Source: a virus
Lineage: Duplodnaviria > Heunggongvirae > Uroviricota > Caudoviricetes
Length of the DNA: 4,399 nt
Strand: one strand, 5' to 3'
Virus record (IMG/VR): IMGVR_UViG_3300029253_000170
Made by a program: the position numbers and the translations under genes. Below, piece after piece: positions 1-4,399 of this stretch; the stretch's first letter is position 1; each line of letters begins with the position of its first letter. A model generated the notes under the pieces. That model was not told where the DNA came from and did no database searches. It saw nothing but the letters and a program-made list of their open reading frames with translations.

Positions 1-2444
<2,444 letters not shown>

Positions 2445-2504: not shown

Positions 2505-3176
2505 TCAGCGACCAATCACCACAACCTGACCACCATCCCCTTCGTCTGCCGTGCTGATCTCCTGAGAAACCACCCGCGACCCCACACGCATTTCACCGTA
2601 CAGAACAGGCAGAACATTGCCCTGGGCAACCATGTTATCCAGTGAGGAGAAATAGGTGTTCTGCTTACCGTTATCCGTTGTCTGTGTGCGGGGAGTTCTG
2701 GCTTTAGGTGCCAGCATCTGAGCCACACCGCCGAGCACCATACTGGCACCGAGAGAAAACAGAATGCCGGTCATACCACCGGCCCCAATGGCTGTTCCCC
2801 ATGCTGCAAGGGTGGCTCCGGCGGTAAAGAATGATCCGGCAATGGCGGCTGCCCCCAGGACAATCTGGAATACGCCACCTGACTTGGCCCCGGCGACTCT
2901 GGGAACGATATGAATCACAGCGCCGTCAGGCAGAGCCTCATGTAACTGCGCCGTTAATCCGGACGTGCTGACATCCTGCCCGGCAATACGTACCTGATAC
3001 CAGCCGTCGCTCAGTTTCTGACGAAACGCAGGGAGCTGTGTGGCCAGCGCCCGGATGGCTTCGGCCCCCGTTTTCACACGAAGGTCGATGCGGCGGCCAA
3101 ATCGTTGTAAATCCCCGTAAAGGCAGATGCGTGCCATGCCCGGTGACGCCAGAGGGAGTGTGTGCGTCGCTGCCAT
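2505..3176 (-). CDS. I: Tail tip assembly protein I (gpI-like), 223 aa, complete
   Basis: Track ORF 2505..3176 starts MAATHTLPLASPGMARICLYGDLQRFGRRIDLRVKTGAEAIRALATQLPAFRQ and ends ...EISTADEGDGGQVVVIGR with TGA at 2507-2505. Length and sequence match lambda gpI as I recall it (ubiquitin-like N-terminal half, Gly/Ala-rich hydrophobic C-terminal half). AGAGG-like purine stretch about 11 nt upstream of the ATG. The start lies inside the 3' end of K, as in lambda. Confidence 0.93.
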   Translation of the reverse strand: MAATHTLPLASPGMARICLYGDLQRFGRRIDLRVKTGAEAIRALATQLPAFRQKLSDGWYQVRIAGQDVSTSGLTAQLHEALPDGAVIHIVPRVAGAKSGGVFQIVLGAAAIAGSFFTAGATLAAWGTAIGAGGMTGILFSLGASMVLGGVAQMLAPKARTPRTQTTDNGKQNTYFSSLDNMVAQGNVLPVLYGEMRVGSRVVSQEISTADEGDGGQVVVIGR

Positions 3177-3809
3177 TTGTCGGTATACCTCTCTCGTTTG
3201 CTCAGTTGTTCAGGAATATGGTGCAGCAGCTCGCCGTCACCACAGTAAATGGCGGCATGATTCGGCACAGATGAACCAAAACAGCACAGCAGCACATCGC
3301 CCGGCTGCGCCGCTGACAGCGNNNNNNNNNNNNNNNNNNNNATTATCCAGATAGAGATTCTGACCGTTACGCCACCAGTCATCCTCACGATGAAAATCCG
3401 GCATCTCAATCCCCGCCAGATGGTAAGCATCCCGGAACAGCGTGTAACAGTCCGTCACCCCGTGCTCAAAGAGCCGCCCGGTGAGATGCGGCACACAGCG
3501 GAATTTATGAATCGCCCCCCGGCAGACCAGCCACCACGGCAAATCACTCTGCACCTGCAACCGCCGGTCGGCCTCACTCAGCCAGGGCAGACCACCGGGA
3601 TGGCTGTGCACCAGCGCCACAATCTCACCCTGCATTTCTGCCCGCAGCCAGTCCTCCGGCGACATCCGGAAATACGCCTCCGGCTCACCGGAGATATTTA
3701 CGCAGGGAAGATATCTGTCTCCCTCCGGCGTTCTCACCACAAAGCCGCACGACTCCGCTGGCGCACATCGCCGGGCGTGCGCCAGAATCGCTGATTCTGT
3801 CTCTGTCAT
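3074..3809 (-). CDS. K: Tail tip assembly protein K (gpK-like), MPN/JAB metalloprotease domain plus NlpC/P60 peptidase domain; interrupted by N-run 3322-3341
   Basis: ATG at 3809-3807, 5 nt after the L stop codon. N-terminal 156 codons (track ORF 3237..3809) contain a textbook JAMM motif H68-S-H70-x7-S78-x2-D81 (HSHPGGLPWLSEAD, plus 3567-3608) followed by the start of an NlpC/P60 fold (GVTDCYTLFRDAYH, Cys121 codon 3449-3447). After the N-run the protein continues in another frame (track ORF 3074..3430: LSAAQPGDVLLCCFGSSVPNHAAIYCGDGELLHHIPEQ...) with the His-containing half of the NlpC/P60 fold, ending at TGA 3076-3074. Domain architecture matches what is established for lambda gpK. Confidence 0.88.
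3322..3341. other. Run of 20 N (assembly gap or masked segment) inside K
   Basis: Literal n characters. The last complete K codon before the run ends at 3342 (AAT, Asn156). The downstream frame resumes with a codon straddling 3322-3320, leaving 19 N in between, which is not a multiple of 3. Confidence 1.
3567..3608 (-). other. JAMM/MPN+ metal-binding motif (HxHx7Sx2D) within K
   Basis: Codons for H68-S-H70-PGGLPWL-S78-EA-D81 of K read directly from the sequence; plus 3606-3608 gtg is reverse-complement CAC (His68). Confidence 0.8.
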
Positions 3810-3814
3810 GGGAT

Positions 3815-4399
3815 TTACTGCGAAAGTTTGTTAATGGAAAGGAAGCCGCCAAAGTTGCCGACGTTATTGCGAAACTTACAGCCACTCAGGCATTTGCTGC
3901 ATTTATCCTTCGTGATATCGGTTGTCGGCTGGTCATATTCATCCGCGACAGCCGGACCGTGATAACCGCACTCATCACCGCGATAGGTCCAGGTGCAGGT
4001 GTTGGCCAGCATGATACGTCCCGGAAAAACAGCGCCATCCGTTTCCGTCGGCGTGGACAGTACAAAGGAGGCACTGACCGCGCTCAGTTCGCTGCACTGC
4101 TCGATGCGCCAGCGGCTGATCACCTCCTGCTCCGGATCGGCGTCGCTGTTTCCGTTGACGAAGTTCACCGCATCCAGAAAACGGGCATAAACCTTACGCC
4201 TGACCACCGTTCCGCCGACCAGACTCTGCAGGTCTTCCGCCATCCCGGTGACCATACCGTACAGGTTAGAAACCGTCAGCGTGGGGCGCGTACTGGTACC
4301 TTTGCCATTCAGTTCGAAACCACTCCCCTGAATGGGATACGCCTGATACTGTCGCCCCTGCCAGGTGACCGGCTCACCTTTTTCGTTCTGCTCATTACA
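3815..4399 (-). CDS. L: Tail tip protein L (gpL-like), 5'-truncated at window end; C-terminal ~194 codons present
   Basis: Reverse complement of 3815-4399 translates in one frame without stops from the window edge: CNEQNEKGEPVTWQGRQYQAYPIQGSGFELNGKGTSTRPTLTVSNLYGMVTGMAEDLQSLVGGTVVRRKVYARFLDAVNFVNGNSDADPEQEVISRWRIEQCSELSAVSASFVLSTPTETDGAVFPGRIMLANTCTWTYRGDECGYHGPAVADEYDQPTTDITKDKCSKCLSGCKFRNNVGNFGGFLSINKLSQ, then TAA at 3817-3815. Matches lambda gpL as I recall it. The Met at 4255 used by the ORF track is internal, not the true start. Confidence 0.93.
   Translation of the reverse strand, partial: CNEQNEKGEPVTWQGRQYQAYPIQGSGFELNGKGTSTRPTLTVSNLYGMVTGMAEDLQSLVGGTVVRRKVYARFLDAVNFVNGNSDADPEQEVISRWRIEQCSELSAVSASFVLSTPTETDGAVFPGRIMLANTCTWTYRGDECGYHGPAVADEYDQPTTDITKDKCSKCLSGCKFRNNVGNFGGFLSINKLSQ

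What the first reader, a model, noticed from the sequence alone, without database searches (positions are those of the whole stretch)
3878..3997. Cysteine cluster at the C-terminus of L consistent with a metal / iron-sulfur binding site
The last about 60 residues of L contain five cysteines in a compact pattern (NTCTWTYRGDECGY ... KDKCSKCLSGCKF). Proteins of the lambda gpL family have been reported to coordinate an iron-sulfur cluster through conserved C-terminal cysteines; the pattern is intact here. A redox-active cofactor in a tail-tip structural protein is unusual and its role in assembly or infection is not well understood.
Basis: partly seen in the sequence, partly recalled or inferred. 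Interest (0 to 1): 0.4.

Follow-up and report, generated by a model that had tools for sequence, protein, structure and literature searches.

The report
Known iron-sulfur site in lambda gpL
The cysteine cluster is real, but it is the already described [4Fe-4S] iron-sulfur site of the phage lambda tail-tip protein gpL, here in a 97%-identical lambdoid copy, so it is an ordinary instance of a known feature.

Summary
Window 3878..3997, minus strand, translates to CTWTYRGDECGYHGPAVADEYDQPTTDITKDKCSKCLSGC. Its five Cys correspond to lambda gpL C173, C182, C205, C208 and C212.

The gene is the C-terminal 194 codons of a lambdoid L gene. It scores 318.8 bits against Pfam Phage_tail_L. It is 189/194 identical to lambda gpL, for which there are five PDB entries. 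It sits in the canonical L-K-I-J tail-tip gene order.

Among 76 homologues below 60% identity, C173, C182, C205 and C212 are invariant, and 58 of the 76 have the spacing C-x8-C-x22-C-x6-C. C208 is Cys in only 3 of 76 and is usually Arg, Thr or Ser.

[quoted passage not shown] They align with the four assigned ligands of F-pyocin PA0638.

The biochemistry (an oxygen-sensitive [4Fe-4S]2+ cluster) was published by Tam et al. in 2013.

The role of the cluster beyond holding the small C-terminal domain together is still open in the literature, but this window adds nothing new to that question. Already known; low interest.

The parts
3815..4399 (-). Gene L (tail tip / baseplate hub protein 1). This is the C-terminal 194 codons plus the TAA stop, corresponding to lambda gpL residues 39-232. 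The first 38 codons lie beyond the window edge.
   Evidence: Open frame to the window edge. Pfam Phage_tail_L at 318.8 bits, covering profile positions 11-206 of 206. 189/194 identical to lambda gpL in the PDB. The equivalent gene is annotated as L in phage 434 and other lambdoid phages.
3818..4054 (-). C-terminal iron-binding ('4Fe-4S') domain of gpL, equivalent to lambda residues 154-232.
   Evidence: Domain limits are taken from PMC10721106 and mapped by the residue-by-residue alignment to 8iyk_L. This domain alone matches 8iyk_L at E = 2.9e-50.
3995..3997 (-). Cys173 codon (TGC), cluster ligand 1.
   Evidence: Cys in 76/76 homologues under 60% identity. One of the four Cys around the cluster density in lambda. 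Aligns with PA0638 C165.
3968..3970 (-). Cys182 codon (TGC), cluster ligand 2.
   Evidence: Cys in 76/76 distant homologues. Named as a ligand in lambda. Aligns with PA0638 C178.
3899..3901 (-). Cys205 codon (TGC), cluster ligand 3, preceded by the invariant Asp203.
   Evidence: Cys in 76/76 distant homologues and D203 in 76/76. Named as a ligand in lambda. Aligns with PA0638 C201.
3878..3880 (-). Cys212 codon (TGT), cluster ligand 4, followed by the nearly invariant Arg215.
   Evidence: Cys in 76/76 distant homologues and R215 in 74/76. Named as a ligand in lambda. Aligns with PA0638 C208.
3890..3892 (-). Cys208 codon (TGC), the fifth cysteine. It is clade-specific and is not a cluster ligand.
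   Evidence: Cys in 148/151 homologues of 60% identity or more, but in only 3/76 below 60%, where it is R 37, T 15, S 9. It is not among the four Cys listed around the density. It is Arg in F2-pyocin BHP and Thr in T1 gp36, but Cys in hub protein gp21.

Best explanation
The segment encodes the [4Fe-4S]-binding C-terminal domain of a lambdoid tail-tip hub protein gpL. Four cysteines ligate one cubane cluster. In lambda numbering they are C173, C182, C205 and C212, spaced C-x8-C-x22-C-x6-C. The cluster is presumably inserted in the host cytoplasm by the host Fe-S assembly machinery (inferred). The cluster acts mainly as a structural pin (inferred from structures and homology). It holds together a small domain of about 80 residues. 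[quoted passage not shown] Without the cluster, gpL should not fold or dock correctly, and tail-tip assembly should fail. From my recollection of the Tam et al. 2013 abstract, Cys-to-Ser or Cys-to-Ala substitutions abolish gpL activity; I could not re-read that paper here. The fifth cysteine, C208, is a lineage-specific extra and not a ligand. What is shown here: the identity of the protein, the intact motif, and the conservation pattern. What is shown by others for the near-identical lambda protein: the bound cluster and its four ligands. What is inferred: that this copy binds the cluster, and that the role is structural rather than redox. The confidence of 0.9 refers to the identification (a gpL [4Fe-4S] site on these four Cys); the 'primarily structural' part alone I put at about 0.6.
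For: The finding's coordinates translate to a 40-residue stretch with five Cys. Pfam Phage_tail_L scores 318.8 bits against a cutoff of 25. The fragment is 189/194 identical to lambda gpL, which has solved structures 8iyk, 8iyl, 8k35, 8xcg and 9e7m; the only differences are P58A, M95L, Y124D, S185H and S198T, and none touches a Cys. The window is 95-96% identical in DNA to lambdoid phages, with L, K, I and J annotated under the match. A full HMMER scan of 1.84 billion cluster representatives found 2127 relatives at E <= 0.001. Among the 76 retrieved homologues under 60% identity that cover the domain, C173, C182, C205 and C212 are Cys in 76/76, and 58/76 have the spacing 8-22-6. Y177, D203 and R215 are also invariant or nearly so. 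Three more distant solved homologues keep the four Cys in the aligned columns: F2-pyocin BHP, T1 gp36 and hub protein gp21. Lambda virion cryo-EM shows extra density modelled as an Fe-S cluster surrounded by exactly these four Cys, and the paper cites the biochemical demonstration of an oxygen-sensitive [4Fe-4S]2+ cluster (PMC10721106). In F-pyocin PA0638 the cluster ligands are C165, C178, C201 and C208, which are the residues aligned to the four here, and its authors call the cluster a 'molecular pin' (bioRxiv 10.64898/2026.02.24.707460; alignment). The RcGTA hub protein also has an Fe-S cluster on four conserved Cys (PMC7296036). In lambda the 4Fe-4S domain moves as a rigid body when the tip opens on LamB (PMC11101478).
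Against: No experiment exists on this particular sequence variant. The primary biochemical paper (Tam et al. 2013) is not in the accessible library, so its details rest on other papers' summaries and on my recollection. [quoted passage not shown] Its authors take this as undermining the earlier purely 'stabilising' proposal, and they state that the function remains to be characterised. gpL-like hubs without any cysteines exist, for example phage LSH1 gp25 (PMC13243795), so the cluster is not indispensable for the hub architecture as such.
Confidence: 0.9

Rival explanations
1. The cluster is a functional redox or oxygen sensor, or a trigger element. It is bound as described, but its oxidation or loss modulates tail-tip opening, infectivity or particle lifetime, rather than merely holding the domain together.
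For: [quoted passage not shown] The authors state that its function is unresolved. The 4Fe-4S domain is one of the domains that rotates during receptor-triggered opening. The motif is strictly conserved across very diverse relatives.
Against: No data in the papers read link redox state to infectivity. Density for the cluster is seen in the cryo-EM maps of lambda, RcGTA and F-pyocin particles, which argues that it is stable once assembled. The domain moves as a rigid body, as expected of a passive structural module. Cys-less hubs exist.
Confidence: 0.12
2. In the mature particle the cysteines bind a different metal such as Zn2+, in the manner of a zinc knuckle or zinc ribbon, and the Fe-S cluster is an artefact of overexpression.
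For: Four-Cys sites of this size can often bind zinc. This is general knowledge and no tool result supports it here.
Against: The density in native lambda virions was modelled as an Fe-S cluster, not a single ion. Cluster density was also reported in RcGTA, where it is stronger than the surrounding protein density, and in F-pyocin. Clustered density was seen at the C-terminus of T1 gp36, where the authors only suspect an iron-binding domain. The biochemistry cited assigns a [4Fe-4S]2+ cluster.
Confidence: 0.02
3. The cysteines form disulfide bonds that stabilise an extracellular structural protein, and all five, including C208, take part in a disulfide or thiol pattern.
For: The virion is extracellular and the domain is surface-exposed. 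An odd fifth Cys sits close by in the sequence.
Against: gpL folds and assembles in the reducing cytoplasm (established knowledge). The structures show non-protein density between the four thiols rather than S-S bonds. C208 is absent from most of the family, so it cannot belong to a conserved disulfide scheme.
Confidence: 0.02

Closest known systems
Bacteriophage lambda gpL (tail tip protein L / baseplate hub protein 1; PDB 8IYK, 8IYL, 8K35, 8XCG, 9E7M; Pfam PF05100)
   Same: 189/194 identical over the part present in the window. All five Cys of the C-terminal domain are at the same positions. Gene order is the same (L-K-I-J). The four ligand Cys (C173, C182, C205, C212) are the same.
   Different: There are five substitutions (P58A, M95L, Y124D, S185H, S198T). 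Two of them (S185H, S198T) lie in the loop between ligands 2 and 3. His185 is the commonest residue at that position among close relatives (52 of 95) and is shared with phage 434. The first 38 residues are outside the window.
Pseudomonas aeruginosa F-type pyocin hub protein PA0638 (F2-pyocin BHP, PDB 25vf)
   Same: Homologous over the whole length (E = 8e-37). It has a 4Fe-4S cluster on four Cys (C165, C178, C201, C208) that align column for column with the four here.
   Different: It is a tailocin, not a phage. It has a 4-residue insertion with an extra Cys after ligand 1. The position equivalent to lambda C208 is Arg.
Phage T1 gp36 (PDB 9l9p), hub protein gp21 (PDB 23gd), and RcGTA hub protein gp13
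   Same: These are gpL-type hub proteins. T1 gp36 and gp21 keep the four Cys in the aligned columns. Cluster density is reported in RcGTA on four conserved Cys, and clustered C-terminal density is reported in T1.
   Different: They are much more divergent (E = 1e-12 to 1e-14 over the full length). Spacing between ligands 1 and 2 is longer. RcGTA carries an extra oligosaccharide-binding domain inserted in the iron-binding domain. RcGTA was not recovered by my sequence searches and is compared from the literature only.
Phage T5 pb3 (single-chain baseplate hub protein)
   Same: The gpL C-terminal domain plus the gpJ N-terminus together correspond topologically to the pb3 HDII-insertion domain.
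   Different: In T5 the gpL-like and gpJ-like parts are fused in one polypeptide. No sequence match was found in my PDB searches.

Membership tests
Phage minor tail protein L / lambda gpL family (Pfam PF05100) | Match to the family profile above the curated gathering score | tested here: met
   318.8 bits against a cutoff of 25, E = 1.5e-95, covering profile positions 11-206 of 206.
Phage minor tail protein L / lambda gpL family (Pfam PF05100) | Near-identity to the type member, which has a solved structure | tested here: met
   189/194 identical to lambda gpL chains in 5 PDB entries, E = 6.9e-130.
Phage minor tail protein L / lambda gpL family (Pfam PF05100) | Position in the tail-tip gene cluster (M-)L-K-I-J | tested here: met
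   Downstream on the same strand are K (Prok-JAB), I (Lambda_tail_I) and J. The same order is annotated in phage 434 and other lambdoid phages. M lies outside the window.
Phage minor tail protein L / lambda gpL family (Pfam PF05100) | Complete N-terminal HDI (tail-tube-like) domain | tested here: inconclusive
   The window starts at the codon for residue 39, so the first 38 residues cannot be seen. The rest of the domain is intact and in frame.
gpL-type [4Fe-4S] tail-tip proteins | Four conserved C-terminal cysteines at the ligand positions (lambda C173, C182, C205, C212) | tested here: met
   All four are present. They are Cys in 76/76 homologues under 60% identity, with spacing 8-22-6 in 58/76. 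They align with the assigned ligands of lambda gpL and PA0638.
gpL-type [4Fe-4S] tail-tip proteins | Physically bound [4Fe-4S] cluster (colour, ICP, UV-visible or EPR spectroscopy, or cryo-EM density) | not testable with these tools
   This is shown by others for lambda and N15 gpL, RcGTA and F-pyocin. For this variant it is inferred from 97% identity.
gpL-type [4Fe-4S] tail-tip proteins | Ligand cysteines required for biological activity | not testable with these tools
   I recall this being reported for lambda gpL by Tam et al. 2013. The paper is not held in the library.

The most novel reading that the evidence does not exclude
The fifth cysteine, C208, lies between ligands C205 and C212. 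It is fixed in the enterobacterial lambda-like clade (148/151 at 60% identity or more), absent from most of the family, and present in the distant hub protein gp21. It could be a functional accessory thiol. For example, it might be an alternative or transient ligand during cluster delivery, or a redox-sensitive neighbour that tunes cluster stability on the exposed surface of the tip. That would give this clade a behaviour other gpL proteins lack.
Probability: 0.06. Interest if true: 0.35.

Novelty: already known. Interest (0 to 1): 0.08.

Why it matters
An Fe-S cluster in a virion structural protein is an unusual piece of biology, and its purpose is still debated. The proposals are a structural pin, a redox role and an assembly role. 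However, it was discovered in 2013 and has since been seen in cryo-EM structures of lambda, RcGTA and F-pyocin, with clustered density also reported in T1. This window is simply another lambdoid copy with the motif intact. It is useful for annotation: four ligand Cys plus one clade-specific non-ligand Cys. It opens no new question.

Tried and rejected
1. I tried to read the primary paper (Tam et al. 2013, J Mol Biol 425:2450) by PMC id and by PubMed id. It is not held. Its content is cited only through other papers' summaries or marked as recollection.

2. I considered whether all five Cys form the site. This is rejected. C208 is not conserved in distant homologues and is not among the four residues around the density.

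3. Ten homologues lack one of the four ligand Cys. I inspected each. Eight are frameshifted, truncated or chimeric gene calls, in which the sequence switches abruptly from unrelated to identical. One (P0233) is misaligned at a domain boundary. One is a single Citrobacter sequence (P0085) with C182R. None represents a Cys-less lineage among close relatives.

4. The plus-strand ORFs overlapping the region (3828..3962, 44 aa; 3993..4190, 65 aa) are short ORFs antisense to a conserved gene. I dismissed them.

5. I did not run structure prediction or fold search. Experimental structures of a 97%-identical protein exist, and the tool returns no coordinates from which Cys geometry could be measured.

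6. Searches of the papers from 2023 onwards for a demonstrated function of the cluster found only the rigid-body movement of the 4Fe-4S domain on tail opening. They found no functional test.

Full report
**What is in the window**

The 4399-base window carries one operon on the minus strand. Reading 3815..4399 on the minus strand gives 194 codons without a stop, ending in TAA at 3815-3817, and the frame is open to the window edge. This protein matches Pfam Phage_tail_L (PF05100) at 318.8 bits against a gathering score of 25.

It is 189/194 identical to lambda gpL residues 39-232, a sequence present in five PDB entries (8iyk, 8iyl, 8k35, 8xcg, 9e7m). The five differences are P58A, M95L, Y124D, S185H and S198T.

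Three more genes follow downstream on the same strand:
- K starts at 3809 and has a Prok-JAB domain.
- I occupies 2505..3176 and matches Lambda_tail_I.
- J starts at 2444.

The whole window is 95-96% identical in DNA to lambdoid phages such as 434, PhiR46_1 and 4A7. In those records L, K, I and J are annotated under the match. The window is therefore a lambdoid phage or prophage tail-tip module.

**Checking the observation**

Window 3878..3997, minus strand, translates to CTWTYRGDECGYHGPAVADEYDQPTTDITKDKCSKCLSGC. The five cysteines correspond to lambda C173, C182, C205, C208 and C212. Their codons are at 3995-3997, 3968-3970, 3899-3901, 3890-3892 and 3878-3880 (read). The finding's coordinates run exactly from the last to the first of these codons.

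Five Cys in 40 residues is improbable by composition alone. The binomial probability is 8e-5 at a Cys frequency of 1.1% (a typical value from my own knowledge) and 1.6e-3 at the window's own coding Cys frequency of 2.15%. The only omission is that the gene is on the minus strand.

**Which cysteines matter**

A word-indexed search returned 630 relatives, the best of which are 69% identical or more. A full HMMER scan of 1.84 billion cluster representatives found 2127 relatives at E <= 0.001 and listed the best 150, reaching down to about 35% identity. I aligned all 263 retrieved proteins to the query and kept the 227 aligned stretches that cover the C-terminal domain.

Among the 76 with less than 60% identity:
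- C173, C182, C205 and C212 are Cys in 76/76.
- C208 is Cys in 3/76; otherwise it is mostly Arg (37), Thr (15) or Ser (9).
- Y177 (76/76), D203 (76/76) and R215 (74/76) are also conserved.
- The spacing is C-x8-C-x22-C-x6-C in 58/76, and the last interval is x6 in 75/76.

In homologues of 60% identity or more, C208 is Cys in 148/151. It is therefore a feature of the close enterobacterial clade.

Ten retrieved homologues lack one ligand Cys. Eight are evidently broken gene calls (frameshifted, truncated or chimeric), one is a misaligned domain boundary, and one is a single Citrobacter sequence with C182R.

**Agreement with experiment**

The lambda virion cryo-EM paper (PMC10721106) reports extra density in the gpL C-terminal domain (residues 154-232). 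The density is surrounded by Cys173, Cys182, Cys205 and Cys212 and was modelled as the iron-sulfur cluster. The paper cites Tam et al. 2013 for the biochemical demonstration of an oxygen-sensitive [4Fe-4S]2+ cluster in gpL and its homologues. These are exactly the four invariant columns found above.

In F-pyocin PA0638 the assigned ligands are C165, C178, C201 and C208 (bioRxiv 10.64898/2026.02.24.707460). In the HMMER alignment to the F2-pyocin BHP chain 25vf_7, those residues sit in the columns of the window's four conserved Cys, and lambda C208 aligns with Arg.

T1 gp36 (9l9p) and hub protein gp21 (23gd) also keep the four Cys in the aligned columns. The T1 authors report clustered C-terminal density and suspect an iron-binding domain. 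The RcGTA hub protein has a cluster on four conserved Cys.

**How it most likely works**

What is shown here is the identity of the protein, the intact ligand set and the conservation pattern. What is shown by others, for a 97%-identical protein, is a bound [4Fe-4S] cluster on these four Cys in the assembled virion.

The rest is inferred. The cluster is loaded in the cytoplasm by host Fe-S machinery and serves chiefly as a structural pin for a small domain. [quoted passage not shown]

Several points are consistent with a passive structural module:
- The 4Fe-4S domain rotates as a rigid body when the tip opens on LamB (PMC11101478).
- The cluster is still visible in the particle maps of lambda, RcGTA and F-pyocin.
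- The F-pyocin authors describe it as a 'molecular pin' at the interface with the gpJ homologue.

Two points count against a purely structural reading. [quoted passage not shown] Cys-less gpL-like hubs also exist, such as LSH1 gp25.

I give about 0.95 to 'this domain binds a [4Fe-4S] cluster through these four Cys' and about 0.6 to 'its role is primarily structural or assembly-related'. A redox-sensing role is the main functional rival, at about 0.12. Zinc binding or disulfide bonding are unlikely, at about 0.02 each.

**Comparison with what is known, and novelty**

This is a member of the lambda gpL family. Every defining feature that could be tested was met; only the N-terminal 38 residues are out of view. 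Nothing in the window departs from it.

The two substitutions inside the domain (S185H, S198T) lie in the variable loop. His185 is the commonest residue at that position among close relatives (52 of 95) and is shared with phage 434.

The one detail worth recording for annotation is that only four of the five cysteines are ligands. C208 is a clade-specific extra whose role, if any, is untested.

Verdict: a real feature, correctly interpreted, already known, and of low interest.

**Limits**

The primary biochemical paper could not be read. No PDB coordinates were accessible, so I could not measure how close C208 lies to the cluster. No structure prediction was run because experimental structures of the near-identical protein exist.

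Noticed in passing
window 869-909, 2258-2271, 3322-3341: There are three runs of N (41, 14 and 20 bases). The window around the 3322-3341 run (positions 3319-3341, 23 bases) corresponds to 31 bases in phage 434, so the run stands in for about 28 bases. The region around the 869-909 run is 49 bases in the window and 45 in phage 434. The masks therefore do not preserve length. The apparent frame breaks in K (ORFs 3237..3809 and 3074..3430) and probably also in J (ORFs 2166..2444 and 793..2253) are therefore likely masking artefacts, not real frameshifts.
   Followed up: partly
window 3074-3809 (-), gene K: gpK carries an intact JAMM/MPN+ metalloprotease-type motif (…ALVHSHPGGLPWLSEAD…, Pfam Prok-JAB, E = 2.3e-14). 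This is followed by a region with a Cys in the context GVTDCYTLF. RefSeq annotates the equivalent gene in related phages as a C40 (NlpC/P60) family peptidase. gpK is reported to be absent from the virion, and its location is reported as unknown.
   Followed up: partly
window 3074-3176 (-), K/I junction: The 3' end of K (stop at 3074) overlaps the 5' end of I (start at 3176) by about 100 bases in a different frame, as annotated in phage 434. Pfam matches the N-terminal domain of gpI to Lambda_tail_I. From my own knowledge this domain is ubiquitin-like and has been proposed as a substrate of the gpK JAB domain. In the virion structure only gpI residues 135-223 were modelled.
   Followed up: no
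window 3810-3817: The TAA stop of L (3815-3817) and the ATG of K (3807-3809) are separated by only 5 bases. Such tight spacing is compatible with translational coupling within the tail-tip operon.
   Followed up: no
window 4094-4096 and 4397-4399 (-), gpL Cys140 and Cys39: There are two further cysteines in the N-terminal HDI domain of L. C140 is not conserved: in distant homologues it is mostly Lys, and in closer ones Met or Leu. C39 is Cys in the 10 distant homologues whose alignment reaches that column. Neither belongs to the cluster site.
   Followed up: partly
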